Shown here in pieces: positions 9,009-36,736 of a stretch of DNA of 64,000 nt. The position numbers and the translations under genes were made by a program. Source of the DNA: Candidatus Bipolaricaulota bacterium (lineage in GTDB: Bacteria; Bipolaricaulota; Bipolaricaulia; RBG-16-55-9); assembly GCA_026982655.1 (NCBI GenBank), contig JALSGO010000165.1, forward strand, positions 35,032 through 99,031. The letters are read 5' to 3'. Every line of letters begins with the position of its first letter. The first letter of the stretch is position 1. The notes beneath the pieces are model-generated. The model did not search any database, was not told the origin of the DNA, and worked only from the letters and a program-made list of their open reading frames with translations.

Positions 9009-9080
9009 CCGGTCCTCCTTCTCTTCCTCGGGAATGTGCCCTATCATACACGGCGGATCGGCTCGGGGAAAGGGACCGCT

Positions 9081-9983
9081 ATGCGCGAACGCGAGATGAT
9101 CCGGCTGCTGCAACGGAAGCTCCCCACGATCGGGGACGACGCCGCAGTGCTGCCCTTCGGGGAGACGCACTTGGTGCTCACCACGGACATGCTCTATCGG
9201 GGGAGCGATATCCCCGAAGGAGCGAGGCCGTGGGCGATCGGCTGGCGGGCCGTGGCCGTCTCGCTGAGCGATCTGGCCGCGATGGGTGCCCGGCCCCTGG
9301 GCGTGGTGCTCGCCCTGGGGGCGCCCCGCTTCGACTTCGAGCGCGGGCTTCTGGAGGGCGTTCTGGAGGGAGCGTTGGCCTGTTGCGACTCCGTGGACGC
9401 CCCTTACGTGGGCGGCGACCTCTCCGCGCACCGCGAGCTTACGCTGGTGAGCGCCGCCGTGGGCGAGGCCGAAAGGCCCGTCCTGCGGAAGGGGGCGCGG
9501 GTGGGCGACCTCGTGTGCGTCACGGGCGCCATGGGGCGCACCGCCGCCGCCTTGAAGCTCTTCGAGCGCGGGGACCGAGAGCGGGCCAACAGGTTGTTCG
9601 CGTTCCCGCCCCGGGTGCGCGAGGGGCGGGCGCTGGCCCCGTACGCCACGAGCCTGATCGACGTAAGCGACGGCTTGGCCCGCTCGCTCCACCTCTTGGG
9701 GGAGGCGGGCGAAGTGGGCTTTCGGGTGGAGTACGAGGCGATCCCCGTCGTGCCCGAAGTGGAGGAGCTGGCCCAAAGCGCCGAAGAACGGCGGGAGATG
9801 GCCCTCTTTTGGGGAGAGGACTTCGAGCTGCTCTTCACCCTGCCCCCCGGGTACCTTCGGCGAGCAGGGGAAGCCGTAGAGTTTGCGGTCATCGGGGAAG
9901 TCGTTCCCCCAAGCGAGGGCATCCGACTGGAGGAGGCACCGGGCAGGGCGAATCCCCTGGAGGACCGAGGCTATGAGCACTAA
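9081..9983 (+). CDS. thiL: thiamine-monophosphate kinase
   Basis: The N-terminus MREREMIRLLQRKLP is typical of ThiL. The AIR-synthase-related fold includes DAAVL...TTDMLY...DLAAMGA. The start is trimmed to the ATG at 9081. Confidence 0.8.
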   Translation: MREREMIRLLQRKLPTIGDDAAVLPFGETHLVLTTDMLYRGSDIPEGARPWAIGWRAVAVSLSDLAAMGARPLGVVLALGAPRFDFERGLLEGVLEGALACCDSVDAPYVGGDLSAHRELTLVSAAVGEAERPVLRKGARVGDLVCVTGAMGRTAAALKLFERGDRERANRLFAFPPRVREGRALAPYATSLIDVSDGLARSLHLLGEAGEVGFRVEYEAIPVVPEVEELAQSAEERREMALFWGEDFELLFTLPPGYLRRAGEAVEFAVIGEVVPPSEGIRLEEAPGRANPLEDRGYEH

Positions 9984-10637: not shown

Positions 10638-11200
10638 CTTCTCTTCTCCTTTCCTTTGCTTTCACTTCACTTATGGATCACGACGGACATCGCGTTCACG
10701 CTGCGCCCCTCGCTCCGGCCCCATAGGCGGGATCACGGCACAAAAGACCGCCCGACTTGAGCTCAGCTCAGGCCTTCTGCCTCAGCTCCGGGGCACGAGC
10801 GAAAGGACGATTACTGGATCTGGGTCTTCTGGGACTTCGTACAGATCGGGCCTCGCAGGCCCAGGACGATATGTCCCCATCCAGTGGGGCTCGGAAGGAC
10901 AAAGACCGAGGAAGGGGAATAAAGACAGAGGAGAGATCCGGGGGAACCGACAATCTGCGTAGTACCGTCTGACCGTCTGAACACCACAAGACTCCCCCTT
11001 TCGCAAGGATGTGGGGACTCATTATACCTGGGGAGGATGGGCTTGTCAAAAGGGGGAGACGACTCGTCGAATCTGCCCCCTGATGGTACAATCCGAAAGG
11101 TTGTACGGCATCGTGGGACGGCGCAGGGGTATCGATGGGGTCTCTGGGGGTTGCGGAAGCGACGCGTCCGAAGGGCGATGACCAAGAGAAAGGGGTGTCA

Positions 11201-13630: not shown

Positions 13631-13865
13631 ACTCCAGGAGGAAGGGCCGTTGGCCCGGCAGGGGCGCGTCGACTTCGGCGGCCTCGTCAAGACCGTGAAC
13701 TTGACGCTTGTCCCCGAGGCGCGGGTTGGGGACTACGTCTTGGTCCACGTGGGGATTGCGATCAGCGTGGTGGACGAGCGCGAAGCCCGACGAGTCCTGG
13801 AGTTCCTCCAGCAAGAAGCTCCCGAAGATCTGGAAGAGCTTCGGATCCCCGAGGAGGGAGGCTGA
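13599..13865 (+). CDS. hypC: hydrogenase maturation factor HypC
   Basis: The invariant N-terminus MCLAVPGRIVE is present. A GGAGGAGAGG SD precedes the gene, which overlaps the hypF 3' end by 32 nt. Confidence 0.9.
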   Translation: MCLAVPGRIVELQEEGPLARQGRVDFGGLVKTVNLTLVPEARVGDYVLVHVGIAISVVDEREARRVLEFLQQEAPEDLEELRIPEEGG

Positions 13866-13871
13866 GCTGAG

Positions 13872-15002
13872 ATGCGGTTCCTAGAGGAGTACCGTGATCG
13901 GCGGTGGGCCCAACGCTACGCCCGCCTGATCGCCCGGACCGTAACCCGTCCCTGGACCCTCATGGAAGTTTGTGGAGGGCAGACGCACGCCATTGTGCGC
14001 TTTGGAATTGATGAACTCCTGCCCGACGAGATCACCCTGGTCCACGGACCGGGATGCCCGGTCTGCGTCACGCCCGTGGAGATCTTGGACAAGGCCCTGT
14101 ACCTCGCAGCCCAGCCGGGGGTGATCTTCTGCTCGTTCGGGGACATGTTGCGGGTGCCGGGCAGCCAAGGCGACCTCCTCCGCGTAAAAGCACAGGGCGC
14201 AGATGTGCGCATCGTATACTCTCCCTTGGACGCGGTCCGCTTGGCCCAGCGCTATCCCGATCGCGAGGTCGTCTTCTTCGCGGTGGGCTTCGAGACCACC
14301 GCGCCGGCGAATGCCTTGGCGGTGCGGCAGGCGCACGCCCTGGGGCTGAAGAACTTCTCGCTGCTGGTGGCCCACGTCCTCGTCCCTCCCGCGATGGAAG
14401 CGATCCTGCGTTCTCCGGCCAACCGGGTCCAAGGGTTCCTCGCCGCAGGTCACGTGTGCACCGTGATGGGCTACGAGGAATACCGCCCACTCGCCCGCCG
14501 CTACCGGGTGCCCATCGTCGTAACGGGCTTCGAGCCCCTAGACCTCCTCCAAGGGATCTATCTCTGTGTGCGGCAGTTGGAGGAAGAACGCTTCGAGGTG
14601 GAGAACCAGTATGCACGATCGGTACGGCCGAAGGGCAACCGAGAGGCCCAACGACTGATCCGGGAGGTCTTCGAGGTCGTGCCCCGGAAGTGGCGGGGCA
14701 TGGGGGAGCTGCCCCGGAGCGGCTTGGGGCTGCGCGCCCCCTATCGGCAATACGACGCCGAGCACAAGTTCGCGCTGTACAGCTCCGGCTCCGATGAGCC
14801 GGAGGACTGCATCGCCGGGCTTGTCCTTCAAGGGATCAAGAAGCCTCCGGACTGCCCCGCCTTTGGGACCCGTTGTACCCCGGAGCATCCCTTGGGAGCT
14901 CCCATGGTCTCCTCCGAGGGGGCTTGTGCGGCGTACTATCGCTACCGCCGCCGTCCGTCCGAAGGCCACGGGCGCCGGGAGGAGGTGTCTGCCTCCGAAT
15001 GA
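13872..15002 (+). CDS. hypD: hydrogenase maturation factor HypD
   Basis: HypD motifs CGGQTH and GPGCPVC plus C-terminal Cys clusters are present. Confidence 0.9.
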
Positions 15003-16066
15003 CGGAACGGGAAGCTCGATTCTCCTGCCCCCTTCCCCGGGACGACTCCCCCCACGTCTTGCTGGCCCACGGAGGGGGAGGTCGCCTGATGGGGCGGCTC
15101 CTCGAAGGGATCGTATCGGCGCTGGGCGGCCCGCCGCTTGAGCATCGCCACGATGGAGCCGTCCTGGCCCTCCCCCTGGAGGGAGGGGACCGAGCGGCGT
15201 TCACCACCGACTCCTATGTGGTGAGCCCCCTCTTCTTCCCCGGCGGCGACATCGGAAAGCTCGCCGTTTACGGAACGGTGAACGACTTGGCCATGTGCGG
15301 CGCGCGCCCGGCCTACCTGAGCGTGGGGATGATCCTGGAGGAAGGCCTGCCTTGGGAGACGCTCGAGCGCGTGGTGGAATCGCTGCGAGAGGCTGCCGAC
15401 CGAGCTGGGGTCTACATCGTGACCGGCGACACGAAGGTCGTGGACAAGGGAAAGGGCGACGGCCTGTTCCTCAACACCGCGGGCTTGGGGATCGTGCCGT
15501 CGGGCGTAGAGGTCCGTCCTTCGGAGGTCCGGCCGGGAGACGTCGTGCTGCTCAGCGGGGACTTGGGACGCCACGGGATCGCCATCCTCGCCACCCGGGA
15601 AGGGCTGGAGTTCGAGACCGCCATCGAGAGCGACTGCGCTCCGCTGCACGAGCCGGTCCTCCGGCTCCTAGCCGAAGGGGTCGAGGTGCACTGCATGCGC
15701 GATCTGACCCGGGGAGGACTGGCCAGCGCGTTGCTGGAGATCGCGCAAAGCACTCAACTGCACATCGAGATCGAGGAGACCGCGATCCCCGTGCGGCCCG
15801 AGGTCCAGGCTGCCTGCGAGCTGCTGGGCCTCGATCCCCTCTATGTGGCGAACGAGGGGCGCTGGGTCACCTTCGTGCCCGAGGGGGAAGCGGAGCGCGC
15901 GTTGACCCTCTTAAGGGACTACCCCGTAAGCGCGGAAGCCTGCGCGATCGGTCGCGTCCTGCCCGCCTCGGAGGCCCTCGGCGGGCTCGTGACGCTGCGC
16001 ACCGCGATCGGGACAACCCGAACGGTGGACTGGCTAAGCGGCGAGCAGCTTCCCCGCATCTGCTAG
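14999..16066 (+). CDS. hypE: hydrogenase maturation factor HypE
   Basis: A PurM-like fold with a C-terminal PRIC is present. The start is trimmed to the ATG at 14999 (ATGA overlap with the hypD stop), which has a GGAGGAGG SD. Confidence 0.9.
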
Positions 16067-16086
16067 GGGGGGCCTTCATCCCCCCC
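16066..16086 (+). terminator. GC hairpin (GGGGGGG-CCTTCAT-CCCCCCC) directly after the hypE stop, with no U-tract
   Basis: A perfect 7-bp G/C stem starts in the TAG stop codon. The lack of a T-run makes intrinsic termination uncertain. Confidence 0.3.
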
Positions 16087-16153: not shown

Positions 16154-17221
16154 TTGCCCATGTTCTACGCCGTCGTGCTCGCGGGGGGAAGCGGGACGCG
16201 CTTTTGGCCCAAAAGCCGCAAAGATCAGCCCAAACAGCTCTTGGACATCATCGGGACCAGCCCCCTGATCGCCCAGACCTTGGAACGCCTCGAGGGCCTG
16301 TTCACCCGGGAGCGCGTCCTGGTGGTCACCCAAGCCCGGCAGCTCGAGGGGGTCCGCAGGCACATCGACCTCCCGGAGGAGAACCTCCTCGGGGAACCCT
16401 ACTCCCGCAACACGGCGGCGGCCATCGGGTTGGCCGCCCTCGAGCTGAAGCGCCGCGAGGGCGAAGAGGCCGTCTTCGCCGTCCTCCCCTCCGATCACTA
16501 CATCGACGACCTCGACGCCTTCTTAAAGACGCTGCTCTTGGCCAAGGAGGTCGCCCGGATGGGCTTTCTGGTCACCATCGGCATCCGGCCCCGCTACCCC
16601 GAGACGGGCTACGGCTACCTCGAGCTGGGCGAGCCCCTCTTGGACCTGGGCTTCCAGGGCATCTATCACGTGAAGCGCTTCGTGGAGAAGCCCGACCTCC
16701 CCACCGCCGCCCGCTACGTCGAGCAGGGGACCTTCCTCTGGAACAGCGGGACGTTCGTCTGGCAGGTCCAGACCCTGCTGGAGGCAATCGCCCGCCACCT
16801 CCCCGATCTCCACCGGGGACTCCAGCGGATCGAGCAGGCGGACCACGACCCCGACGAGATCGAGCGCATCTACAAGGACCTCCCCGACATCAGCATCGAC
16901 TACGGGGTGATGGAGAAGGCGGACAACTGCGCCGTGGTCATCGGGGACTACGGCTGGAGCGACGTGGGCTCCTGGTCGGCTCTGGCCGAACTCCTGGAGA
17001 AGGACGAACGGGGGAACGTCCGGCGGGGCGAGGTCGTGGCGGTGGACTGCTCCAACTCCGTCTTGTACAGCGACGACGGGCTCATCGGCGCCTTGGGCCT
17101 GCGGGACATGGTCGTCGTATACTCCGGCGGGGCCGTCTTGGTCTGCCCCGTGGAGCGCTCCCAGGACGTCCGCAAAGTGGTGGAGAAGCTCAAGGAGCTG
17201 GGAAAGGAACGGTATCTCTAG
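16154..17221 (+). CDS. manC: mannose-1-phosphate guanylyltransferase (GDP-mannose pyrophosphorylase), no isomerase domain
   Basis: The N-terminus MFYAVVLAGGSGTRFWPKSR carries the nucleotidyltransferase G-loop. The C-terminal left-handed beta-helix region and a GAGGAGG SD are also present. Confidence 0.85.
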   Translation: MPMFYAVVLAGGSGTRFWPKSRKDQPKQLLDIIGTSPLIAQTLERLEGLFTRERVLVVTQARQLEGVRRHIDLPEENLLGEPYSRNTAAAIGLAALELKRREGEEAVFAVLPSDHYIDDLDAFLKTLLLAKEVARMGFLVTIGIRPRYPETGYGYLELGEPLLDLGFQGIYHVKRFVEKPDLPTAARYVEQGTFLWNSGTFVWQVQTLLEAIARHLPDLHRGLQRIEQADHDPDEIERIYKDLPDISIDYGVMEKADNCAVVIGDYGWSDVGSWSALAELLEKDERGNVRRGEVVAVDCSNSVLYSDDGLIGALGLRDMVVVYSGGAVLVCPVERSQDVRKVVEKLKELGKERYL

Positions 17222-17230
17222 CTCAAACCC

Positions 17231-19594
17231 ATGAAGCCAGGGGGGAAGCCGCGTTCGGCCCGTTGGGTGCGGAGGATCGCCTTCATCGGCGATTACCCCC
17301 CGCGCCGCTGCGGGATCGCGGCGTTTACCCACGACCTCTGCGAGGCGATCGCGGAGCAGTACCCCGACATCGACTGCTTCGCCGTCGCCGTCACGGACCG
17401 CGAGGAGGGGTACGACTATCCCCCCCGAGTCCGCTTCGAGATCCCCGAGGAGAACCTGGCCTCCTATCGACGGGCCGCGGAGTTCCTCAACACCAACCAC
17501 GTCGATCGGGTCTGCGTCCAGCACGAGTACGGCATCTACGGCGGCCCGGAGGGGCGCTACCTCTTGGCCCTCTTACACGAGCTGCACATGCCCACCGTCA
17601 CCACCCTCCACACGATCCTCAAGGAGCCCAACCCCGAGCAGCGGCACGTGCTCGAGGAGCTGGCCCGCCTCTCGGATCGCCTGGTGACCCTCAGCCGCAA
17701 GGGGGCCGAATTCCTCACGGAGATCTACGGGGTCCCCCCGGAGAAGATCGACCCCATCCCCCACGGCATCCCCGACATGCCCTTCGTGGACCCCAACTTC
17801 TACAAGGACCAGTTCGGGGTCGAGGGGCGCACCGTCTTGCTGACCTTCGGCCTCCTCTCCCGGAACAAGGGGATCGAATACGTATTGGACGCGCTCCCTG
17901 CGATCGTGAAGCGCCACCCCGAGGTGGTGTACATCGTGCTCGGCCCCACCCATCCCGGCGTGGTCCGCCACGAGGGGGAGGTCTACCGCCGCTCCCTCGA
18001 GGAGCGCGTCGCGAAGCTCCGCCTCGAGGAGCACGTGATCTTCGACGCCCGCTTCGTGAGCTTAGAGGAGCTGATCGCCTACATCGGGGCCGCCGATGTC
18101 TATATCACGCCCTACCCCAACAAGGAGCAGATCTCCTCGGGGACGCTCTCCTACGCCCTGGGGGCGGGCAAGGCGATCGTCTCGACCCCCTATTGGTACG
18201 CCGAGGAGCTGCTGGCCGACGGGCGCGGCGTGCTGGTGCCCTTCCGCGACTCGGAGGCCCTCGCCGAGGCCGTCTGTGAGCTTTTGGAGAACGAGACGGA
18301 GCGGCACGCGATGCGCAAGCGCGCGTATCTCTTCGGTCGGGAGATGATCTGGCCCAAGGTGGCCCAACGGTATCTGGAGAGCTTCAAGCGGGCGCTGGAG
18401 GAGCGGCTGCGGTCGCCTCGGCCTCGGGTCTCTTTGAGAACCCCAAGCTCCCGGGAGCTTCCGCCCCTCAAGCTCGACCACCTCCTGCGCCTCACGGACG
18501 ACACGGGCCTGCTGCAGCACGCCTCCTTTGGGGTTCCCCACTACCAAGAGGGCTACACCACGGACGACAACGCGCGGGCCCTCTTGCTGGCGGTCACCCT
18601 GGAGCAGCTGGGCGAGCCCTCGGGGAACGCGCAGCACGCGCAAGGGGTTCAAGCCCGCGTCCGGGAGCTGGCCCCTCGGTATTTGGCCTTCCTGCGCTAC
18701 GCCTTTGACCCGGGGACGGGCCGCTTTCGGAACGTCTTGGGGTATGACCGTCGCTGGCGGGAGGAGGTCGGGTCCGAGGACAGCCACGGACGGGCGCTCT
18801 GGGCGCTGGGGGCCGTGCTCCACCGCTCGCACCGCCACGATCTTCGGGGCCTGGCGGCCTGGCTCTTCGAGGGGGCCCTCCCCGCGGCCCTTGAGCTCAA
18901 GAGCCCTCGGGCGTGGGCCTTCGGTCTGCTGGGGCTGTGGGAGTACCTCCAAGCGTTCCCCGGGAGCCGCGAGGCCCTGCGCGCCGCCCAGGAGCTGGGC
19001 GAGCGGCTCTTTAAGCTTTACGAGAGGAACGCATCGAAGGAGTGGCCCTGGTTCGAAGATCAACTCACGTACGACAACGCGACGCTCCCCCACGGGCTGC
19101 TGCTCGCCGGGGAGGTCCTCAAGCGCTCGGAGATGAGGGACGCGGCACTCGAAGCCCTGGAGTGGCTGGTGGGCGTTCAAAAGGCCGAGGAGGGGCATTT
19201 TGTCCCCATCGGCAATCGGGGGTTCTACCCGCGGGGGGGCGAGCGGGCGCGCTTCGATCAGCAGCCCATCGAAGCTTATGCAACCGTGGCCGCGGCCCTG
19301 ACGGCCCACCGGCTCACGGGGAAGGGACGGTGGCACGAGGAGGCCCACCGGGCGTTTGAGTGGTTCTTGGGGCGAAACGACCTGGGCCTGCCGCTGTACG
19401 ACCCGCAGACGGGGGGCTGCCGGGATGGGCTTCAGCCCGACGGCGTCAACGAGAACCAGGGGGCCGAGTCGACGTTGGCGTTTCTCCTCTCGCGGGTGGA
19501 GCTGGCACGACACGAGGACACTCATCGCCTGGCGCTCGTGGACGCACGCGTACAACCCTCTAACGGGAACGGGAACGGAAAGGGGGAAGACTAG
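17231..19594 (+). CDS. two-domain protein with an N-terminal GT4 glycosyltransferase and a C-terminal (alpha/alpha)6 glycosidase-like domain
   Basis: The first roughly 390 aa have a GT-B/GT4 fold (EX7E-like ...FGLSMVE-type motif near ...SSGTLSYALGAGKAIV). The last roughly 390 aa resemble six-hairpin glycosidase or debranching-enzyme C-terminal domains (DDNARALLLAV...). The ATG at 17231 lacks a clear SD, so the start is uncertain. Confidence 0.65.
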   Translation: MKPGGKPRSARWVRRIAFIGDYPPRRCGIAAFTHDLCEAIAEQYPDIDCFAVAVTDREEGYDYPPRVRFEIPEENLASYRRAAEFLNTNHVDRVCVQHEYGIYGGPEGRYLLALLHELHMPTVTTLHTILKEPNPEQRHVLEELARLSDRLVTLSRKGAEFLTEIYGVPPEKIDPIPHGIPDMPFVDPNFYKDQFGVEGRTVLLTFGLLSRNKGIEYVLDALPAIVKRHPEVVYIVLGPTHPGVVRHEGEVYRRSLEERVAKLRLEEHVIFDARFVSLEELIAYIGAADVYITPYPNKEQISSGTLSYALGAGKAIVSTPYWYAEELLADGRGVLVPFRDSEALAEAVCELLENETERHAMRKRAYLFGREMIWPKVAQRYLESFKRALEERLRSPRPRVSLRTPSSRELPPLKLDHLLRLTDDTGLLQHASFGVPHYQEGYTTDDNARALLLAVTLEQLGEPSGNAQHAQGVQARVRELAPRYLAFLRYAFDPGTGRFRNVLGYDRRWREEVGSEDSHGRALWALGAVLHRSHRHDLRGLAAWLFEGALPAALELKSPRAWAFGLLGLWEYLQAFPGSREALRAAQELGERLFKLYERNASKEWPWFEDQLTYDNATLPHGLLLAGEVLKRSEMRDAALEALEWLVGVQKAEEGHFVPIGNRGFYPRGGERARFDQQPIEAYATVAAALTAHRLTGKGRWHEEAHRAFEWFLGRNDLGLPLYDPQTGGCRDGLQPDGVNENQGAESTLAFLLSRVELARHEDTHRLALVDARVQPSNGNGNGKGED

Positions 19595-20796
19595 TGGCTG
19601 CAGTGCTCATCATCCCGGAGCGGAACGAGGGAGAAGCGCCCCTCTTCGTGGCGGAGCAGGGGTTGCGGGCGCAGCCCATCAAGGCCGTCTTCCTCGTCGA
19701 CGGCTGGTCCTCCGACGACACGTTCGTGAAGCTCTCGCGCGCGATCCCGGAGATGCAGCTGCGCCATCCCAACCGTCGCATCGAGCTCTTTCGGAGCTAT
19801 CTTAGGGCCACGGGCAAGGGGGGCGCGATGGTGACGGGGCTCCAGCGCGCCTTGGCCGCCGGATACGATCCGATCGTCTTTTTAGACGGGGACATCCAAT
19901 CCGTGACCCCGCGTTGGTGTGAGCTCCTCCTGGAGGCGCTCCACGAGCAGGGGGCCGCGATGGCCCGGGGGTACTTCGACCGCAGCCCCTTGGACGCCCA
20001 GATCACCCGCCACGTCACCCGGCCCCTGATGGCCCTCTACTTCCCCGAGGGACGCCGCATCCAACAGCCCTTAGGGGGAGAACTCGCCCTGACCGCGGAG
20101 CTGGCCCGCTTCTTGCTCGAGGGCCAGATGATCGACCCGCCCCATCACTGGGGGATCGACACCTTCTTCACTGTGAACACCGTGGTGGAGGGCTTCCCCG
20201 TCGTGGAGGTCTACCTCACCCAGAAGACCCACAAGCCCAAGAGCCTGACGCAGCTGCGGCAGATGTTCATCGAGTGCTTCGACGAGATGTGCCGCCAGAT
20301 CGACTTCCACGGGCGGCTGGAGCGGGTCCCCGAGCTGGGGGAGATCTCCGTCACCGTGGTGCGCCCGGAGCGCCCGCCTGAGCGGGTGGGGCAAGACGTC
20401 CGGACCCTGCAGTACGTCAAGCTCGAGGAGCAGCGGGAGCGCTTCTTCACCTTCGTGCGGGGGCTGCGCCACCCTCAGGAGCGGCTGGAGGAGCTGGAGG
20501 TCTCCCCCGAGCTGCGGGCGTTGGTGCTCGCGCTCTTCGACCCCGAGCAGTTCGAGAAGCGCAGCTCCGAACTCAACCCCGAGACGTGGGTTCCCCTTCT
20601 GGATCAGCTGGCCCGCGGGTACATCCGGCGGAACTACCACGTAGTGTATCACGACGTCCTCTTCGCCTGCTGGCAGCTGCGGGCCCTGGCGTTCGCCCAC
20701 CACGAAGCCGAAAGCTTTGAGAAGGCCGAAGAGGCCACGGAACGTCAAGCCCAGTACGCCTACGAGTACGGGGAGCGGTATCGTGCTTCTCGCTGA
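19594..20796 (+). CDS. GT78-like glycosyltransferase, putative mannosylglycerate synthase homologue
   Basis: A DxD-like FLDGDIQ motif is present. The motifs ...IQQPLGGELAL... and ...WGIDTFFTVNT... match my recollection of Rhodothermus-type mannosylglycerate synthase (about 400 aa). The GTG start at 19594 overlaps the upstream stop and has an AAAGGGGGAAG SD. Confidence 0.55.
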   Translation: MAAVLIIPERNEGEAPLFVAEQGLRAQPIKAVFLVDGWSSDDTFVKLSRAIPEMQLRHPNRRIELFRSYLRATGKGGAMVTGLQRALAAGYDPIVFLDGDIQSVTPRWCELLLEALHEQGAAMARGYFDRSPLDAQITRHVTRPLMALYFPEGRRIQQPLGGELALTAELARFLLEGQMIDPPHHWGIDTFFTVNTVVEGFPVVEVYLTQKTHKPKSLTQLRQMFIECFDEMCRQIDFHGRLERVPELGEISVTVVRPERPPERVGQDVRTLQYVKLEEQRERFFTFVRGLRHPQERLEELEVSPELRALVLALFDPEQFEKRSSELNPETWVPLLDQLARGYIRRNYHVVYHDVLFACWQLRALAFAHHEAESFEKAEEATERQAQYAYEYGERYRASR

Positions 20797-20799
20797 AGA

Positions 20800-21033
20800 A
20801 TGGCCGAACCCTATCCTCCGCTGCCGGACGGCAGGGAATTTGACCCCGAAGAGTGGGAGCCGATAGCGGAACATACCGAACCCGCCCGCGGAAGGCACAA
20901 GCGCGGATGGAGCATTCAAACCGTATATCGCCACAAGCGTACCGGAGAGATCGTCACTCGACATCGGATTGAGAAAGCGGGTAAGATCGTCCATGACCAC
21001 TTTCGGCCCGGAGGTGCGAAGACTCGACCATGA
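20800..21033 (+). CDS. hypothetical 77-aa basic protein
   Basis: The ATG lies 3 nt after the upstream stop and the gene ends in an ATGA overlap with the next ORF. Codon usage matches its neighbours. No recognisable family. Confidence 0.45.
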   Translation: MAEPYPPLPDGREFDPEEWEPIAEHTEPARGRHKRGWSIQTVYRHKRTGEIVTRHRIEKAGKIVHDHFRPGGAKTRP

Positions 21034-21326
21034 GCCCTACGCCCAAGCTCCCGACGATCGACGAGCTGAAGCACGAGGTCCTTGAGGTGCTCGCCAACGA
21101 TTATGAAGACCTGGAGCAGCTGAGGGACCTCTTGGGCAAAGTCCCTTCCCAGCGATTGCGGGAGGCCCTCTGGGAGCTCATTCAAGAGGGCTTGGTGGAG
21201 TGCCTGAGGCCCTCGAGGACGGCCCTGCATCCCGTGTCGAACCCGAACCCTTCGGAGCTTGCTACCTATTGGTTCGCACTGACCGAGGAGGGCGAACGGC
21301 GCTTAGAACCGTCTTCTCAGCCCTAG
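21030..21326 (+). CDS. hypothetical 98-aa protein with winged-helix-like features
   Basis: It is translationally coupled by an ATGA overlap. The helical N-terminus and the C-terminal ...ATYWFALTEEGERRL resemble a winged HTH (wHTH) wing. Confidence 0.45.
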   Translation: MSPTPKLPTIDELKHEVLEVLANDYEDLEQLRDLLGKVPSQRLREALWELIQEGLVECLRPSRTALHPVSNPNPSELATYWFALTEEGERRLEPSSQP

Positions 21327-21352
21327 CGTTTGATCTCGTTGCAAGCAGGTCC

Positions 21353-22366
21353 ATGCGCATCGGGATGCTGGCGCCCATCGCCTGGCGGGTCCCGCCCCGG
21401 CACTACGGCCCCTGGGAGCGGGTCGTCTCCCTCCTCACGGAGGGGCTCGTCGAGCGCGGGGTAGAGGTCACGCTGTTCGCCACCGCCGACTCCCTCACCC
21501 GAGCGCGGCTGGTGGCCGTCTGCCCCCGCCCCTACGAGGAGGATCCCGAGATCGACCCCAAGGTCTGGGAGGGGCTCCACATCGCGGAGGCCTTCGAGCG
21601 CGCCCGCGCCGGGGAGTTCGACCTCTTGCACAACCACTTCGACTTCCTGCCCCTCACGTACAGCGGTCTGGTGGACATCCCCGTGCTCACCACGATCCAC
21701 GGCTTCTCCTCGGAGAAGATCCTGCCCGTCTACGAGAAGTACAACGGACAGGTCTATTACGTCTCGATCAGCCACGCCGACCGCCACCCGAAGCTCGACT
21801 ACGTCGCCACGGTCTATCACGGCATCCCCGTCGAGGAGTTCACCCTGCGCCGCGAGCGCGGGGACTATCTGCTCTTCTTCGGGAGGATTCATCCCGACAA
21901 GGGGGCTGCGGAGGCCATCGAGGTCGCCCGGCGCTCCGGGAGGAGGCTGGTGATCGCGGGCATCGTCCAAGACGAGAAGTACTTCGAGGAGCGGGTGAAG
22001 CCTCATCTCAACGGAAACATTGAGTACATAGGCTCCGTCGGGGGTCGGGAGCGGGACAAACTCCTCGGGGGCGCGTACGCTCTACTGCACCTCATCAACT
22101 TTGACGAACCCTTCGGGCTCAGCATGGTGGAGGCGATGGCCTGCGGCACGCCCGTGATCGCCCGCCCGCGCGGGGCGGTCCCCGAGGTCGTAAGAGACGG
22201 GGAGACCGGCTTCCTCGTCCACACGGTGGACGAGGCCGTCGAGGTCCTCCCCCGGGTGGCGCAGCTCGACCGCGGGAGGATCCGCCGACACGTGGAGGAG
22301 CGCTTCCGCGCCGAGCGGATGGTGGAGGACTACCTCCGGGTCTACCGGCAGATCCTGGGCTCATGA
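21353..22366 (+). CDS. GT4 family glycosyltransferase
   Basis: A GT-B fold with the EX7E region (DEPFGLSMVEAMACGTPV) is present. The start is trimmed to the ATG at 21353 (MRIGMLAP). The ORF-track GTG at 21200 would add 51 non-homologous residues. Confidence 0.8.
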   Translation: MRIGMLAPIAWRVPPRHYGPWERVVSLLTEGLVERGVEVTLFATADSLTRARLVAVCPRPYEEDPEIDPKVWEGLHIAEAFERARAGEFDLLHNHFDFLPLTYSGLVDIPVLTTIHGFSSEKILPVYEKYNGQVYYVSISHADRHPKLDYVATVYHGIPVEEFTLRRERGDYLLFFGRIHPDKGAAEAIEVARRSGRRLVIAGIVQDEKYFEERVKPHLNGNIEYIGSVGGRERDKLLGGAYALLHLINFDEPFGLSMVEAMACGTPVIARPRGAVPEVVRDGETGFLVHTVDEAVEVLPRVAQLDRGRIRRHVEERFRAERMVEDYLRVYRQILGS

Positions 22367-23580
22367 CGGAGTTCGTCCTGGGGATCAACTACTGGCCCAT
22401 CTCGAGCGCGATGGGCTGGTGGAAGCGCTTTCCGCCGGAGGAGGTGGAGCGGGACTTCGCCCGCATTCGGAGCGCGGGATTGGAGATCGTACGCATCTTC
22501 TTGCTGTGGGAAGACTTTCAGCCCGCCCCTCAGGAGATCTCCGAAGGAGCCCTTCATCGTCTTCAGACGACGGCCCATATCGCGAGCGCTCACGGGCTGA
22601 AACTGCTGATCACGCTCTTTACGGGTCACATGAGCGGGGCCAATTGGCTCCCCGCGTGGGCCCTCTCCTCCCGATCGGGGGCGGGGGCAAACGCCTCGCA
22701 GCGATTTCCGACGATCTCGCAGGGGCGCGTCGGGGATGCCCTTCCCCGCAACTGGTACACGGACGAGGAGGTACAGCGAGCACAGGAAGTCCTGGCCGAG
22801 CGCGTGGGCGAGGAGCTGAAAGACCACCCCGCCGTCTGGGCCTGGGACCTGGGGAACGAGAACTCGAACGTCTGCGTGCCGCCCTCGCGGGAGCTGGGGC
22901 TGCGATGGCTTAAGCGCATGGCCGGGGCGCTCCGCCGCGCGGGCGCGCGGCAGCCCCTCACGCTGGGACTGCACATGGAAGACTTAGAAGAGGACCGCCG
23001 TCTGGGCCCCGCCGAGGCGGCTCCAGTCTGCGATTTCCTCTCCATGCACGGGTACCCGGTGTACGTCTCCTGGGCCGACGGCCCCAAGGACCCCTGGGTG
23101 CTCCCCTTCTTGGGGATGATCACCCACTGGCTCGGCGGCGGAAAGCCCGTCTTGTTCGAGGAGTTCGGGGCACCCACCCGACTTCCCTCCGAGGTTCCTA
23201 CCGAATCGCTCCCCGTACCCCTTCTTACCGAGGAGGAGGCAGCAGGGCTCATCGCACAGGCCCTCACGCTCTTGAGGCGCTTTGGGATGGTGGGCGCGCT
23301 CCTCTGGTGCTACGGGGACTACGATCCCGCCCTCCGGCACGATCCCCCCTTCGATCGCGCGCCCCACGAGCTGCGCTTCGGACTCTGGCGCGCCGACGGC
23401 TCGGAGAAGCCCGCCGTGGGCGTCGTCCGCCGCTTCGCCCAAACCCCCTCCCGGAACCGCGAACCCGAGGGAGGCCCGGACACGGGTTGGATTGACATCC
23501 CGCCCGAGAGGTTTTATACAGATCCCCGTGCGCATCTCGTGCGCCTCTACCGGCGCTTCCGGGAGCGCTTTTCGTCTTGA
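22363..23580 (+). CDS. GH-A clan TIM-barrel glycoside hydrolase (GH5/GH113-like, possible beta-mannanase)
   Basis: GINYWP, WDLGNENS (acid/base Glu) and VLFEEFG (nucleophile Glu) motifs are present. The gene has an ATGA overlap with the upstream GT4. Confidence 0.65.
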   Translation: MTEFVLGINYWPISSAMGWWKRFPPEEVERDFARIRSAGLEIVRIFLLWEDFQPAPQEISEGALHRLQTTAHIASAHGLKLLITLFTGHMSGANWLPAWALSSRSGAGANASQRFPTISQGRVGDALPRNWYTDEEVQRAQEVLAERVGEELKDHPAVWAWDLGNENSNVCVPPSRELGLRWLKRMAGALRRAGARQPLTLGLHMEDLEEDRRLGPAEAAPVCDFLSMHGYPVYVSWADGPKDPWVLPFLGMITHWLGGGKPVLFEEFGAPTRLPSEVPTESLPVPLLTEEEAAGLIAQALTLLRRFGMVGALLWCYGDYDPALRHDPPFDRAPHELRFGLWRADGSEKPAVGVVRRFAQTPSRNREPEGGPDTGWIDIPPERFYTDPRAHLVRLYRRFRERFSS

Positions 23581-23616
23581 GCCAAACCACGAGCACCGGA
23601 GACGAGGAGGCCGAGG

Positions 23617-24597
23617 ATGAGGACCACCACGAATCGCCGTTATGAGACGCTCTTTCACCGCCACGAGCGAAATCCCATCCTGACGGCGGCGGACTGGCCC
23701 TATCCCGTCAACTCCGTCTTCAACGCCGGGGCGACCCTCCTGCCCGACGGCACCACGCTCCTGTTGTGTCGGGTGGAGGACCGCCGCGGCCACTCCCACC
23801 TCTGCGCCGCCCGCTCCCGAAACGGGGTGGACGGCTGGAAGATCGACCCCGAGCCCACCCTCCTGCCCGACCCCGAACGCCACCCCGAGGAGCTGTGGGG
23901 CATCGAAGACCCCCGGATCACCTACGTGCCCGAGCTGGAGAAGTACGCCGTGGTGTACACGGCCTACTCCCGCAGCGGTCCCGCGGTCGCGCTGGCTTTG
24001 ACCCAAGACTTTCGACACTTCGAGCGCTGCGGCGTGATCATGCCCCCGGAGGACAAGGACGCCGCTTTGCTGCCGCGGCGCATCCGGGATCGCTGGGCGC
24101 TCATCCACCGGCCTGTGGGCCCGATGGGGGCCCACATCTGGGTTTCGTACTCGCCGGACCTCACCCACTGGGGGGAGCAGAAGCTCGTGCTGGAGACCCG
24201 CCGCGGCGGGTGGTGGGACTCCGAGCGCATCGGCTTGAGCCCGCCGCCCCTCGAGACCCCCGAAGGGTGGCTCATCATCTACCACGGCGTCCGGCGGACG
24301 GTCTCGGGGGCCATCTACCGCCTGGGATTGGCGCTGTTGGACCTTGAGAAGCCCGAGAAATGCTTATTGCGCAGCGACGACTGGGTCTTCGGCCCCGAGG
24401 AGCCCTACGAGCGCTTCGGGGACGTGAACAACGTGGTGTTCCCCTGCGGCTACGTCCTCGAGCCCGACGGCGACACCCTGCGGCTCTACTACGGCGCGGC
24501 GGACACCTGCATCGCGCTGGCTACCGGAAGCGTCCGGGCGCTCTTGGGGTGGCTCAAGCGCCACGGTCGGGAGCCGGTGATCCCTCCGGCCCTTTGA
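23617..24597 (+). CDS. GH130 family beta-mannoside phosphorylase/hydrolase
   Basis: NPIL...NSVFNAGA...GIEDPRITYV...IIYHGV motifs are characteristic of GH130 five-bladed propeller enzymes. Confidence 0.8.
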   Translation: MRTTTNRRYETLFHRHERNPILTAADWPYPVNSVFNAGATLLPDGTTLLLCRVEDRRGHSHLCAARSRNGVDGWKIDPEPTLLPDPERHPEELWGIEDPRITYVPELEKYAVVYTAYSRSGPAVALALTQDFRHFERCGVIMPPEDKDAALLPRRIRDRWALIHRPVGPMGAHIWVSYSPDLTHWGEQKLVLETRRGGWWDSERIGLSPPPLETPEGWLIIYHGVRRTVSGAIYRLGLALLDLEKPEKCLLRSDDWVFGPEEPYERFGDVNNVVFPCGYVLEPDGDTLRLYYGAADTCIALATGSVRALLGWLKRHGREPVIPPAL

Positions 24598-36729: not shown

Positions 36730-36736
36730 CCCGAAA

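What the first reader, a model, noticed from the sequence alone, without database searches (positions are those of the whole stretch)
16154..24597. Eight-gene translationally coupled mannoside operon mixing synthesis (ManC, GT78, two GT4) with breakdown enzymes (GH5-like, GH130)
The genes run manC, GT4 fused to a six-hairpin glycosidase domain, a GT78 mannosylglycerate-synthase-like enzyme, two small ORFs, a GT4, a GH-A clan hydrolase and a GH130 phosphorylase. Gaps between them are 0 to about 30 nt and several junctions are ATGA or TAGTG overlaps, so this is one transcription unit. GDP-mannose production next to a GT78 enzyme suggests a mannosylglycerate-type compatible solute. The extra GT4s and the fused glycosidase domain suggest further decoration, for example a mannosyl-glycosyl-glycerate or an oligomannoside. 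A GH5-like enzyme and an inverting GH130 beta-mannoside phosphorylase in the same operon is unusual. It may give turnover or recycling, or point to a beta-mannoside product. No phosphatase of the two-step MpgS/MpgP route is present. It sits directly after hypFCDE with a hairpin but no U-tract between them.
Basis: partly seen in the sequence, partly recalled or inferred. Interest (0 to 1): 0.75.

Follow-up and report, generated by a model that had tools for sequence, protein, structure and literature searches.

The report
Mannosylglycerate genes grafted onto mannoside module
A tightly packed sugar-gene cluster in an uncultured Bipolaricaulota bacterium joins a mannosylglycerate-synthase-type enzyme and a GDP-mannose-making enzyme to a widespread but unstudied enzyme set that probably builds and recycles a mannose-containing compound inside the cell.

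Summary
The cluster is real. Seven co-directional genes at 16160-24597 have gaps of -4 to +36 nt, and an eighth ORF (20800-21033) is doubtful. Order and content are conserved in related Bipolaricaulota contigs.

Most domain calls hold: ManC, a GT78/MGS-like enzyme, two GT4s, a GH5_18-like hydrolase and a GH130. The fused C-terminal domain is an (alpha/alpha)6 barrel, but it is not GDE_C. Its closest structure is the uncharacterised YPO2471, followed by GH76 and AGE-type barrels.

New context:
- GT4-barrel + GH130 is a conserved pair (59 of 62 metagenome loci). GT4b and the GH5-like gene join it occasionally. None of those loci carries manC or GT78.
- The GT78-like gene belongs to a small family otherwise found beside sugar ABC transporters, MGH1-like mannosylglycerate hydrolase, glycerate kinase or CN-hydrolase. 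MGS catalytic and glycerate-binding residues are conserved, so a mannosylglycerate link is well supported.
- GT4b is 47% identical to glucosylsucrose synthase, which elongates a compatible solute.
- The GH130 carries the beta-1,2 phosphorylase residue signature.

Mixing synthesis and breakdown genes is therefore typical of this module, and Thermoanaerobacter has a precedent. The product, the reaction direction and co-transcription remain untested.

The parts
16066..16086 (+). G7-loop7-C7 hairpin directly after the hypE stop codon, with no U tract. It marks the upstream border of the cluster.
   Evidence: Sequence and RNA fold. The terminator scan found no excess of sites. L063 carries the same cluster without hyp genes upstream, so the cluster does not depend on hyp.
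16160..17221 (+). manC: mannose-1-phosphate guanylyltransferase (353 aa) without the phosphomannose-isomerase domain.
   Evidence: PF00483 at 141.7 bits and PF22640 at 65 bits. TIGR01479 matches only positions 2-350 of 467 (331 bits, below the cut-off of 373), so the PMI half is missing. GGAGG lies 8-9 nt before the ATG at 16160. The public gene call is 353 aa.
17231..19594 (+). GT4x: a GT4 glycosyltransferase (about residues 1-400) fused to an (alpha/alpha)6-barrel domain (about residues 415-775) of an uncharacterised family.
19594..20796 (+). GT78-like, mannosylglycerate-synthase-type GT-A glycosyltransferase (400 aa). Its start overlaps the GT4x stop (TAGTG).
   Evidence: PF21969 MGS_GT at 96.1 bits (cut-off 27). 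R. marinus MGS 2bo4/2y4j at E 5e-26, 35% identity over 257 aa. Catalytic, metal, donor and glycerate-binding residues are conserved and invariant in 34 homologues. Family context is ABC transporter, MGH1-like GH, glycerate kinase and CN_hydrolase.
20800..21033 (+). s1: doubtful 77-aa ORF. It is more likely a 233-nt non-coding spacer, which holds a promoter-like match at 20958-20987 and the s2 Shine-Dalgarno sequence.
   Evidence: GC3 is 0.59 and the stretch is 59% GC. The ORF is not called in L001 and has no counterpart in L063 apart from the last ~14 codons around the GGAGGTG ribosome-binding site. There is no Pfam hit and no Rfam hit.
21030..21326 (+). s2: conserved 98-aa protein of unknown function.
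   Evidence: It is 48% identical to the 97-aa ORF at the same place in L063. Only 14 representatives were found among 1.84 billion proteins, all but one 84-98 aa long. It is predicted to be helical, but the model is poor (pLDDT 64) and gave no fold match. DUF5805 scores below threshold.
21353..22366 (+). GT4b: small GT4 (337 aa) of the glucosylsucrose-synthase (TeGSS, alpha-1,2-glycosyltransferase) type.
   Evidence: PDB 7fg9/8x3q (TeGSS) at E 4e-85, 47% identity over 333 aa. TeGSS Y18, R179, K184 and E256 are conserved as Y18, R178, K183 and E252; W10 is not conserved. Orthologues at 63-74% lie between GT4x and GH130 in L064, L065 and L120, and directly after GT4x in L068 (where no GH130 was detected). 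In L147 the 69% orthologue lies beside GT4x on the opposite strand.
22363..23580 (+). GH-A: cytoplasmic clan GH-A hydrolase (405 aa), GH5_18-like beta-mannosidase type. Its start overlaps the GT4b stop (ATGA).
   Evidence: Best PDB matches are 7bob (E 1.7e-17), BlGH5_18, BlMan5B and the C. acnes exo-beta-1,4-mannosidase. The acid/base pair N165-E166 and the nucleophile E267 align with those structures. Pfam Cellulase and GH42 score below threshold. The gene is absent from L063 but is coupled to GT4b in L147.
23617..24597 (+). GH130 mannoside phosphorylase (326 aa) with the residue signature predicted for beta-1,2 linkages.
   Evidence: PF04041 at 190.9 bits. The proton donor is D98 and the phosphate-binding residues are R165 and H223. 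The +1 subsite residues R52, E97, K147 and D296 give the 'R-E-K-D' beta-1,2 pattern of Li et al. 2020. This signature is almost invariant in the 62 aligned GH130 sequences (the window's plus 61 module-linked ones). The 3' end overlaps a convergent Rce1-like gene.

Best explanation
This is a cytoplasmic operon built around the GDP-mannose / mannose-1-phosphate pool, in a Bipolaricaulota (Acetothermia) genome. It is a mosaic of two units.

Unit 1 is a recurrent, uncharacterised module. Its core is the GT4-(alpha/alpha)6 fusion plus a beta-1,2-type GH130 phosphorylase. A glucosylsucrose-synthase-like GT4 and a GH5_18-like beta-mannosidase are occasional extras. The core pair occurs without the other genes in many loci, and homologues of the fusion carry names from several bacterial phyla.

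Unit 2 is lineage-specific. It consists of manC plus a mannosylglycerate-synthase-type GT78 enzyme with a small conserved ORF. The GT78 gene was recruited from a mannosylglycerate uptake/turnover locus and inserted between the module's genes.

Proposed working (all inferred):
1. ManC turns Man-1-P and GTP into GDP-Man.
2. The GT78 enzyme transfers mannose from GDP-Man to D-glycerate, giving alpha-mannosylglycerate in one step, without a phosphatase.
3. The GT4 enzymes add alpha-linked hexoses to a small acceptor, much as TeGSS elongates sucrose. I put the chance that the acceptor is mannosylglycerate at about 40%.
4. The GH130 adds beta-1,2-mannose from Man-1-P or, with phosphate, removes it and regenerates Man-1-P. 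ManC can then re-activate that Man-1-P without spending ATP on a hexokinase step.
5. The GH5-like enzyme trims beta-mannosides by hydrolysis.

The net effect is a make-and-recycle loop for an intracellular mannose-based solute or reserve oligosaccharide.

Shown here: gene order, family identities, conserved catalytic and binding residues, and genomic contexts. Inferred: substrates, product, reaction direction and co-transcription.
For: - Tight co-directional packing with overlapping stop/start codons, and synteny in L063, L002 and L003.
- GT78-like protein: Pfam MGS_GT is above threshold and MGS is the best PDB hit. Residues for ribose, metal, the K-D-D network and the glycerate carboxylate are invariant.
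- Relatives at 29-70% identity sit next to glycerate kinase, MGH1-like GH and CUT1 ABC transporters. In L003, glycerate kinase directly follows GT78 inside the manC-GT4x-GT78 cluster.
- In an NJ tree, the cluster-type GT78 clade nests inside the transporter-linked clade.
- GT4x is followed by GH130 in 52 of 62 loci (59 of 62 have one anywhere in the locus). No other partner is widely shared. The four-gene set recurs in L147.
- GT4b is 47% identical to TeGSS. That enzyme elongates a stress solute and is encoded next to the solute's synthase.
- The GH130 has the phosphorylase and beta-1,2 signature. Enzymes of this type can also use GDP-Man weakly.
- By inspection of the N-termini, GT4x, GH-A and GH130 have no signal peptide.
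- Precedent for ManC+GT4+GH5+GH130 as a Man-1-P/GDP-Man loop comes from Thermoanaerobacter X-514.
Against: - No enzyme was assayed, and no transcript or metabolite data exist.
- The module occurs without manC or GT78 in all 80 scanned loci, so mannosylglycerate cannot be its general substrate.
- Retaining GT4 and GT78 enzymes make alpha links, while GH130 and GH5_18-type enzymes act on beta-mannosides. The 'breakdown' enzymes therefore cannot simply undo what the GTs make.
- Most relatives of the GT78 protein lie in loci that look like uptake and catabolism (transporter, hydrolase, glycerate kinase). This fits degradation at least as well as synthesis.
- The guanine-contacting Q66 of MGS aligns with Glu, so the donor nucleotide is not established.
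- The GT4b donor could be UDP-Glc rather than GDP-Man.
- NCBIfam equivalog cut-offs for beta-1,2-mannobiose phosphorylases are not reached (190-211 bits against 450-550).
- A 233-nt spacer containing a promoter-like match may split transcription.
Confidence: 0.45

Rival explanations
1. The cluster works in the salvage or catabolic direction. Mannosides taken up or released in the cell are broken down: beta-mannosides by GH5-like hydrolysis and GH130 phosphorolysis, and mannosylglycerate by the GT78 enzyme running backwards (mannosylglycerate + GDP gives GDP-Man + glycerate), as proposed for TreT on trehalose or sucrose synthase on sucrose. ManC links GDP-Man and Man-1-P, possibly yielding GTP with PPi. 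The GT4s merely consume the salvaged GDP-Man.
For: - The Thermoanaerobacter X-514 cluster with the same enzyme types was interpreted as a phosphorylase-fed GDP-mannose salvage pathway.
- Relatives of the GT78 protein are embedded in transporter, MGH1-like hydrolase and glycerate-kinase loci with overlapping reading frames.
- L003 has glycerate kinase directly after GT78.
- Bipolaricaulota are described as energy-limited acetogens (titles and abstracts listed), for which ATP-sparing routes would pay.
- The TreT and sucrose-synthase analogies rest on my own knowledge.
Against: - The 64-kb window holds no CUT1 transporter, no glycerate kinase and no MGH1-like hydrolase.
- None of the proteins has a secretion signal, and no uptake system is linked.
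- Three glycosyltransferases in one operon is a lot for a purely degradative route.
- GT4b's closest characterised relative is biosynthetic.
- Reversal of a GT-A mannosyltransferase on mannosylglycerate has not been shown.
Confidence: 0.25
2. All genes serve one pathway that makes a decorated mannosylglycerate compatible solute de novo, such as hexosyl-mannosylglycerate or an oligomannosyl-glycerate. The hydrolase and the phosphorylase serve only to turn that solute over.
For: - The MGS-type residues and the glycerate context of the family.
- manC lies directly upstream.
- GT4b is homologous to an enzyme that elongates a compatible solute and sits next to the solute's synthase.
- The gene order is conserved in L063.
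Against: - GT4x, GT4b, GH-A and GH130 form a module that exists without GT78 or manC in many lineages. Their primary substrate is therefore something else.
- GH130 and GH5_18-type enzymes act on beta-mannosides, and no enzyme here is known to make such links except possibly the GH130 itself.
- GH-A is missing from the otherwise identical L063 cluster.
Confidence: 0.2
3. The glycosyltransferases build a cell-envelope or protein-linked mannose-containing glycan, with GDP-Man supplied by ManC. The GH130 and the GH5-like enzyme are unrelated neighbours or only trim precursors.
For: GT4 enzymes and ManC are common in envelope glycan clusters. Public annotations call the GT4x relatives 'glycosyltransferase involved in cell wall biosynthesis'. 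NCBIfam gives only weak similarities to EPS and LPS GT4s.
Against: - The cluster has no flippase, polymerase, lipid-carrier-priming transferase or membrane protein.
- The near-obligate GT4x-GH130 pairing and the soluble, signal-less proteins point to cytoplasmic small-molecule chemistry.
- The GT78 family is tied to glycerate.
- GT4b's nearest characterised relative acts on a soluble sugar.
Confidence: 0.07

Closest known systems
Thermoanaerobacter sp. X-514 cluster Teth514_1785-1796 (Chiku et al. 2014, PMC4264767)
   Same: A unidirectional cluster that combines ManC, a GT4 mannosyltransferase, a GH5 beta-glycosidase and GH130 beta-1,2-mannoside phosphorylases. It was interpreted as feeding Man-1-P from phosphorolysis into GDP-mannose.
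   Different: That cluster has a five-gene ABC transporter and two GH130 genes. It has no GT78 enzyme, no GT4-(alpha/alpha)6 fusion and no TeGSS-like GT4. The window has no transporter.
Rhodothermus marinus mannosylglycerate synthase, GT78 (PDB 2BO4, 2Y4J)
   Same: It is the best PDB match, at 35% identity over the GT-A domain. The two proteins have the same overall length (about 400 aa). The DXD motif, the metal-binding His, the K-D-D network and the glycerate-carboxylate contacts I138/T139 are conserved.
   Different: The C-terminal ~130 residues do not align. PF21967, the second Pfam domain listed with MGS_GT for the weakest hit of the search (P0108), is not detected. Q66 (guanine contact) aligns with Glu. 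The window protein belongs to a separate small clade of uncultured bacteria and archaea (108 clusters found), whose genes usually sit in transporter, hydrolase and glycerate-kinase loci.
Thermosynechococcus SPS/GSS pair tll1590-tll1591 (glucosylsucrose synthase TeGSS, PDB 7FG9; PMC9909042)
   Same: GT4b is 47% identical to TeGSS over its full length and keeps its catalytic residues. As in that system, the elongating GT4 lies close to the gene for the synthase of a small stress solute.
   Different: The acceptor is unlikely to be sucrose: the stacking residue W10 is not conserved and no SPS is present. The donor may be GDP-Man rather than UDP-Glc. Neither could be tested here.
Mycobacterial methylmannose-polysaccharide system ManT (GT4) + MmpH ((alpha/alpha)6 hydrolase) (PMC9883506)
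   Different: Here the two activities would sit on one polypeptide. There are no methyltransferases. MmpH is not the closest fold match. Catalytic residues could not be superposed.
Leishmania mannogen cycle (GT108 mannosyltransferase/phosphorylases, related to GH130)
   Same: The concept is the same: an intracellular beta-1,2-mannoside is built from GDP-Man or Man-1-P and mobilised by phosphorolysis. Bacterial beta-1,2 GH130 enzymes can show dual phosphorylase and GDP-Man transferase activity.
   Different: No beta-1,2-mannan is known from these bacteria. The partner proteins (GT4 fusion, TeGSS-like GT4) have no counterpart in Leishmania. The comparison is an analogy only.
Mannosylglycerate hydrolase (MGH1-like, GH63) / glycerate kinase turnover loci
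   Same: The nearest paralogues of the window's GT78 gene are translationally coupled to an MGH1-like GH and to glycerate kinase, behind a CUT1 ABC transporter (L145, L146, L056).
   Different: The window cluster has none of these genes. The fused (alpha/alpha)6 domain shows no sequence relation to the MGH1-like GH (hhalign probability 0.3).

Membership tests
GT78 / mannosylglycerate synthase | Match to the MGS GT domain model above the curated threshold | tested here: met
   PF21969 scores 96.1 bits against a cut-off of 27. Generic GT2 scores only 25.2 bits. MGS structures are the best PDB hits at E 5e-26.
GT78 / mannosylglycerate synthase | DXD motif and His that bind the metal, and the K76-D100-D192 network | tested here: met
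   D98-G-D100, H213, K75 and D189 are present. All are invariant in 34 homologues except H213, which is at least 90% conserved. Residue roles are taken from PMC2581804.
GT78 / mannosylglycerate synthase | Glycerate-carboxylate contacts (I138 main chain, T139 side chain) | tested here: met
   I137-T138 are invariant in the family. R130 aligns with MGS R131; its role is from my own knowledge.
GT78 / mannosylglycerate synthase | Guanine-specific contact Q66 (GDP-sugar preference) | tested here: inconclusive
   The aligned residue is Glu, in a gapped region of the alignment. The adjacent manC is only circumstantial evidence for GDP-Man.
GT78 / mannosylglycerate synthase | C-terminal MGS-specific domain | tested here: not met
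   PF21967 was not detected. It is the second Pfam domain listed alongside MGS_GT for the weakest hit, P0108. The alignment to MGS ends near residue 269.
GT78 / mannosylglycerate synthase | Catalyses GDP-Man + D-glycerate to give mannosylglycerate | not testable with these tools
   This needs an enzyme assay. Context with glycerate kinase and MGH1-like GH in relatives is supportive.
GH130 mannoside phosphorylase, beta-1,2 type | GH130 domain, the proton-donor Asp and the phosphate-binding Arg/His pair | tested here: met
   PF04041 scores 190.9 bits. D98, R165 and H223 align with UhgbMP D104, R168 and H231.
GH130 mannoside phosphorylase, beta-1,2 type | +1 subsite signature R-E-K-D (beta-1,4 is R-Y-R-D; beta-1,3 is R-E-R-D) as defined by Li et al. 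2020 | tested here: met
   R52, E97, K147 and D296 are present. In the 62-sequence alignment (the window's GH130 plus 61 module-linked ones), 61 have K at this position. This key is a published prediction rule, not an assay.
GH130 mannoside phosphorylase, beta-1,2 type | Reaches the curated equivalog score for a characterised beta-1,2-mannobiose phosphorylase | tested here: not met
   NF050092 scores 211 bits against 550, and NF052550 scores 189.8 against 450. The best PDB matches by score are beta-1,4 enzymes: TM1225 (37% identity), RaMP2 and UhgbMP.
GH5 subfamily 18 beta-mannosidase | Sequence membership (family model or full-length similarity) | tested here: inconclusive
   Pfam Cellulase scores 17.8 bits, below the cut-off of 23.5. 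Similarity to GH5_18 structures is strong only over residues 5-105 (E 1e-17 to 1e-9) and weaker over the rest. No dbCAN subfamily models were available.
GH5 subfamily 18 beta-mannosidase | Clan GH-A catalytic pair (Asn-Glu acid/base and Glu nucleophile) | tested here: met
   N165-E166 lie in the motif GNEN. E267 in FEEFG aligns with QEFG of 7bob and QEVG of BlGH5_18.
Glucosylsucrose-synthase-type GT4 (TeGSS) | Full-length homology and catalytic residues Y18, R179, K184 and E256 | tested here: met
   E 4e-85, 47% identity over 333 aa. Y18, R178, K183 and E252 are conserved.
Glucosylsucrose-synthase-type GT4 (TeGSS) | Sucrose acceptor contact W10; UDP-Glc donor | tested here: not met
   W10 aligns with Ala (Trp is at position 11). 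The uridine loop I230-D234 differs (IGSVG). The window has no SPS.
Thermoanaerobacter-type GDP-mannose salvage cluster | Co-directional ManC + GT4 + GH5 + GH130 | tested here: met
   Searches compared.
Thermoanaerobacter-type GDP-mannose salvage cluster | Linked ABC importer for the mannoside substrate | tested here: not met
   tblastn with the CUT1 solute-binding, permease and MalK proteins found only a generic ABC ATPase at 52.7-54.2 kb. The Pfam calls for genes flanking the cluster list no transporter.

The most novel reading that the evidence does not exclude
The GT4-(alpha/alpha)6 fusion plus beta-1,2-type GH130 pair, with an optional TeGSS-like GT4 and a GH5_18-like beta-mannosidase, is a so far unrecognised bacterial system spanning several phyla. 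It builds an intracellular mannose oligosaccharide or glycoside from nucleotide sugar and mobilises it by phosphorolysis, making it a bacterial counterpart of the Leishmania mannogen cycle. In Bipolaricaulota the system has been coupled to a mannosylglycerate synthase, so that mannosylglycerate primes the product. That would be a new class of compatible solute or reserve (oligomannosyl- or hexosyl-mannosylglycerate). A side reading is also not excluded: the transporter-linked GT78-like enzymes may run in reverse as mannosylglycerate:GDP mannosyltransferases, for energy-saving catabolism.
Probability: 0.2. Interest if true: 0.8.

Novelty: new variant of a known kind. Interest (0 to 1): 0.55.

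Why it matters
1. It points to a highly conserved, abundant and apparently unstudied gene pair. The listed top 120 homologues of the fusion are 60-90% identical, and their public names span Chloroflexota, Planctomycetota, Verrucomicrobiota, Acidobacteriota, Sumerlaeota, Rhodothermus and Bipolaricaulota. Its chemistry (a retaining GT fused to a glycosidase-like barrel, next to an inverting mannoside phosphorylase) is not explained by any characterised pathway.

2. It defines a small clade of GT78-like enzymes in uncultured anaerobic bacteria and archaea. These are tied to mannosylglycerate uptake, hydrolysis and glycerate kinase. This extends the known range of mannosylglycerate metabolism and raises the question of whether these enzymes are reversible.

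3. It gives concrete, cheap enzyme assays that would settle what stress solute or reserve sugar Bipolaricaulota make. The first cultured member of this phylum was reported only in a 2025 preprint.

Tried and rejected
MGS_GT scores 96 bits against 25 for GT2, and MGS is the best PDB hit.
- s1 as a real gene is judged doubtful.
- The function of s2 stays unknown. Pfam gave only a sub-threshold DUF5805 match, the single-sequence AF2 model was poor (pLDDT 64), and Foldseek found nothing with E below 1. The exhaustive search found only 14 relatives.
- Rfam on the cluster, including the 233-nt spacer, found nothing.
- The terminator and promoter scan showed no clear excess over shuffles (promoter-like 2 against 0.7 +/- 0.8; terminator-like 7 against 4.5 +/- 2.3), so it gives no argument for or against one transcript.
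- A search of the window for glycerate kinase, a CUT1 transporter, MGH1-like GH or a second GT78 copy found none.
- A search for further conserved partners of GT4x-GH130 in 83 loci found none beyond a lineage-restricted Crp-like regulator in 19 loci.
- Full-text literature searches for GH130 together with GT4, and for mannosylglycerate in Bipolaricaulota, found no description of this module or clade.
- I could not superpose the fused domain on the GH76 or MmpH catalytic residues, because model coordinates and residue-level structural alignments are not exposed by the tools.

Full report
OBSERVATION. The window is about 66% G+C. Between 16154 and 24597 there is an unbroken series of + strand ORFs. 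Start and stop inspection, together with the gene calls of an identical public contig (ENA ERZ27262642 k141_481478, locus L001), gives the following:
- manC, 16160-17221
- a 787-aa protein, 17231-19594
- a 400-aa protein, 19594-20796
- a 77-aa ORF, 20800-21033
- a 98-aa ORF, 21030-21326
- a 337-aa protein, 21353-22366
- a 405-aa protein, 22363-23580
- a 326-aa protein, 23617-24597

The gaps are 9, -1 (TAGTG), 3, -4 (ATGA), 26, -4 (ATGA) and 36 nt. hypF, hypC, hypD and hypE lie upstream. A G7-loop7-C7 hairpin (16066-16086) follows the hypE stop and has no U tract. A convergent Rce1-like gene overlaps the 3' end of the last gene.

One correction concerns the 77-aa ORF. Its GC3 is 0.59, against 0.79-0.93 for its neighbours. 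It is not called in L001 and is absent from the syntenic relative L063. I treat it as a 233-nt spacer of 59% GC, which holds one promoter-like match and no Rfam match.

WHOSE GENOME. The closest genomic relatives of the GT78-like gene and its left neighbours are Candidatus Bipolaricaulota MAGs (L002 and L003, at 75-94% amino-acid identity for manC, GT4x and GT78). A JGI metagenome contig (L063) carries manC-GT4x-GT78-s2-GT4b-GH130, followed by the same Rce1-like, DUF4129 and MoxR genes as in the window. It has different genes upstream and no GH5-like gene. The cluster is therefore conserved in this lineage, is independent of the hyp genes, and has a variable GH5-like member. The rest of the window is housekeeping (MetRS, aminotransferase, peptidases, ribonucleotide reductase, a tRNA array). 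It contains no sugar transporter, glycerate kinase or second GT78 copy.

THE INDIVIDUAL PROTEINS.

ManC has the nucleotidyltransferase and beta-helix domains but lacks the isomerase half of the bifunctional enzymes.

It matches Pfam MGS_GT at 96 bits (cut-off 27), against 25 bits for generic GT2. Its best solved relatives are the Rhodothermus marinus mannosylglycerate synthase structures (E 5e-26, 35% identity over 257 residues). I took residue roles from the GpgS/MGS comparison in PMC2581804. The ribose contact E11, the K76-D100-D192 network, the metal ligands D102 and H217, L163, W189 and the glycerate-carboxylate contacts I138/T139 are present as E12, K75, D98, D189, D100, H213, L160, W186 and I137/T138. 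All of them are invariant or nearly so in 34 homologues. Two features are not shared: the guanine contact Q66 (Glu here, in a gapped stretch of the alignment) and the C-terminal third of MGS.

The 337-aa GT4 (GT4b) gave an unexpectedly specific match. It is 47% identical over its whole length (E 4e-85) to glucosylsucrose synthase TeGSS (tll1591) and keeps its catalytic Y18, R179, K184 and E256. TeGSS adds alpha-1,2-glucose units to sucrose, a stress solute, and is encoded beside the sucrose-phosphate synthase gene.

The 405-aa protein is a clan GH-A enzyme. Its best solved relatives are GH5_18-type beta-mannosidases and a beta-mannanase. The acid/base pair N165-E166 and the nucleophile E267 are in place, and it has no signal peptide. 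Pfam GH5 and GH42 models score below threshold.

The GH130 protein has the proton donor D98 and the phosphate-binding pair R165/H223, so it is a phosphorylase rather than a hydrolase. By score it is closest to beta-1,4 enzymes (TM1225, 37% identity). By the +1-subsite key of Li et al. 2020 (beta-1,4 is R-Y-R-D, beta-1,3 is R-E-R-D, beta-1,2 is R-E-K-D) it reads R52-E97-K147-D296, which predicts beta-1,2. It does not reach the NCBIfam equivalog cut-offs for characterised beta-1,2-mannobiose phosphorylases. Ladeveze et al. 2025 report that beta-1,2 and beta-1,3 GH130 phosphorylases can also use GDP-mannose weakly.

THE FUSED DOMAIN. The N-terminal half of the 787-aa protein is GT4. Its best solved relative is PimA, a GDP-Man enzyme, but at only E 3e-9. 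The C-terminal half gave no Pfam hit. An AlphaFold model built on 36 homologues (pLDDT 85.7, pTM 0.87) is an (alpha/alpha)6 barrel.

The family has invariant acidic residues (D445/D446, E609, D676, D732, E746), as expected for a glycosidase-type active site. I could not superpose them on known catalytic residues.

FIRST COMPARATIVE RESULT: A CONSERVED MODULE. The 120 listed full-length homologues of the fusion protein are 60-90% identical. Named sources are Chloroflexota, Caldilineae, Anaerolineae, Acidobacteriota, Planctomycetota, Verrucomicrobiota, Sumerlaeota and Rhodothermus marinus and R. profundi. All are annotated only as GT4.

In three sampled genomes, a GH130 gene follows the fusion gene directly in a Thermoguttaceae genome and a Chloroflexi genome, but not in R. 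marinus. A metagenome scan returned 80 loci. Of the 62 with at least 1.2 kb of sequence after the fusion gene, 52 have a GH130 orthologue (67-76% identical to the window's) within 400 nt, and 59 have one somewhere in the locus. Four loci have a GT4b orthologue directly after GT4x; in three of them (L064, L065, L120) it lies between GT4x and GH130. None of the 80 has manC, the GT78-like gene, s2 or the GH5-like gene.

Clustering all flanking ORFs of 83 loci found no other widely shared partner. The next most frequent family, a Crp-like regulator, occurs in 19 loci. A Logan contig (L147) has GH130 and GT4x on one strand and, divergently, GT4b and a GH5-like gene overlapping by 4 nt exactly as in the window. 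Identities to the window proteins are 77, 63-68, 69 and 54%.

It also has a published parallel in Thermoanaerobacter sp. X-514. There, ManC, a GT4, a GH5 and two GH130 beta-1,2-mannoside phosphorylases lie in one cluster with an ABC transporter, and the cluster was interpreted as a phosphorylase-fed GDP-mannose pathway. I found no paper describing the GT4-barrel/GH130 pair itself.

SECOND COMPARATIVE RESULT: THE GT78-LIKE FAMILY. This family is small. The search found 108 clusters. In genomes it occurs in Bipolaricaulota, Anaerolineae, Methanomassiliicoccales and Thermoplasmata, Woesearchaeota, Nitrososphaerales and a deltaproteobacterium. Outside the window's immediate clade the gene is almost never near GT4 or GH130; the one exception is L028, described below. 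Instead it sits as follows:
- beside a CUT1-type ABC transporter (solute-binding protein, two permeases, MalK) in L004/L056, L005-L007, L009, L042, L043 and L057-L059;
- with glycerate kinase (PF02595 or the MOFRL type) in L056, L057 and L043;
- with a carbon-nitrogen hydrolase in L005, L008, L009, L011 and L058.

In L145 and L146, the closest paralogues (68-70% identity), the order is transporter, then an MGH1-like mannosylglycerate-hydrolase-family GH, then GT78-like, then glycerate kinase, with overlapping reading frames. In L003, glycerate kinase (PF02595, E 1.6e-83) directly follows GT78 inside a manC-GT4x-GT78 cluster.

A neighbour-joining tree places the cluster-type genes (window, L002, L003, L063) as a young clade inside the transporter-linked clade. 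One Bipolaricaulota MAG carries both types on different contigs (L002 and L004).

Taken with the conserved glycerate-binding residues, this makes mannosylglycerate (or a very similar glycosyl-glycerate) the most likely substrate or product of the family. I put that at about 0.75. It also shows that the window's copy was recruited from a mannosylglycerate uptake/turnover locus into the module. The context of the relatives does not say in which direction the enzyme runs.

HOW IT MOST LIKELY WORKS. I read the cluster as a mosaic that shares one metabolite pool.
1. ManC interconverts Man-1-P and GDP-Man.
2. The GT78-type enzyme links GDP-Man and D-glycerate to mannosylglycerate in one step, which fits the absence of any phosphatase.
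3. GT4b, by analogy with TeGSS, elongates a small soluble acceptor with alpha-linked hexose. The GT4 half of the fusion does something similar, and its barrel trims or rearranges the product. ManT and MmpH do this as separate proteins on mycobacterial methylmannose polysaccharide.
4. The GH130 adds or phosphorolytically removes beta-1,2-mannose and returns Man-1-P to ManC.
5. The GH5-like enzyme hydrolyses beta-mannosides.

All these proteins lack export signals, so the chemistry is cytoplasmic. The module's independence from GT78 in 80 loci argues that mannosylglycerate is not its general substrate. The insertion of GT78 between the module's own genes in four Bipolaricaulota contigs argues for a functional link in this lineage.

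The main rival is the catabolic or salvage direction, with the GT78 enzyme reversed in the manner of TreT or sucrose synthase (an analogy from my own knowledge). It is favoured by the context of the relatives and by the Thermoanaerobacter model. It is disfavoured by the lack of any transporter, hydrolase or glycerate kinase in the window and by the number of transferases. An envelope-glycan role is unlikely, since there are no membrane or lipid-carrier components. One problem remains for every reading: the transferases are retaining (alpha) enzymes, while the two 'breakdown' enzymes belong to families specific for beta-mannosides. The module must therefore either contain a beta-mannoside-forming step (the GH130 itself running in the synthetic direction) or act on two different linkages of a mixed product.

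VERDICT. The cluster is a new variant of known kinds (mannosylglycerate synthase, TeGSS-type elongation, and the GH130/ManC Man-1-P loop).

Noticed in passing
L005, L008, L009, L011, L058, L059 (for example L058:7171-7992): In several Anaerolineae, Thermoplasmata and Bipolaricaulia loci, a carbon-nitrogen hydrolase (PF00795, E 9.5e-54) lies immediately upstream of the GT78-like gene, behind a sugar ABC transporter. Rhodothermus marinus is known to accumulate mannosylglyceramide, the amide of mannosylglycerate (my own knowledge). An amidase acting on such a compound would fit this arrangement, but it was not tested.
   Followed up: partly
L145:10421-13320 and L146:10388-13279; window 11135-16066: In L145 and L146 the MGH1-like GH / GT78-like / glycerate-kinase genes are followed directly by [NiFe]-hydrogenase small and large subunit genes and a HycI protease gene. 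In the window the cluster follows hypFCDE. The mannosylglycerate genes and the hydrogenase genes may share an old chromosomal neighbourhood in this lineage.
   Followed up: no
L028:10001-18823 (Nitrososphaerales archaeon MAG): An archaeal locus combines a GT78-like gene (38% identity, partial match), a GH130 (37%, Pfam E 8e-66), a GT4 resembling the N-terminal half of GT4x (36%, without the barrel domain), two ABC permeases and a MalK-type ATPase. This may be an independent association of the same enzyme types.
   Followed up: partly
L060:9001-11325 (Rhodothermus marinus CP001807): The model organism for mannosylglycerate synthase carries a 65%-identical orthologue of the GT4-(alpha/alpha)6 fusion. 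It stands alone, next to an OsmC gene and with no GH130 nearby. A cultured, genetically tractable host for studying the fusion protein therefore exists.
   Followed up: no
window 36655-38083 (+) and 34674-34748 (-): Seven tRNA genes lie on the + strand, six of them packed between 37524 and 38083. One further tRNA lies on the - strand.
   Followed up: no
window 20797-21029: A 233-nt stretch between GT78 and s2 has lower G+C (59%). It is missing from the syntenic L063, where the gap is 56 nt. It holds a sigma-70-like match (TCGACA-18-TAAGAT, 20958-20987) about 40 nt before the s2 start. It may be an inserted spacer with an internal promoter.
   Followed up: partly
window 24554-24597: The GH130 gene and the convergent Rce1-like (CPBP protease family) gene on the - strand overlap by 44 nt at their 3' ends. 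The same pair of neighbours is conserved in L063.
   Followed up: no
L144:2269-3096 and 8001-9182: The distant (32% identity) Thermoplasmatales branch of the GT78-like family stands alone, without transporter or kinase genes. In the one contig inspected it lies about 5 kb from an MscS-type mechanosensitive channel gene.
   Followed up: no
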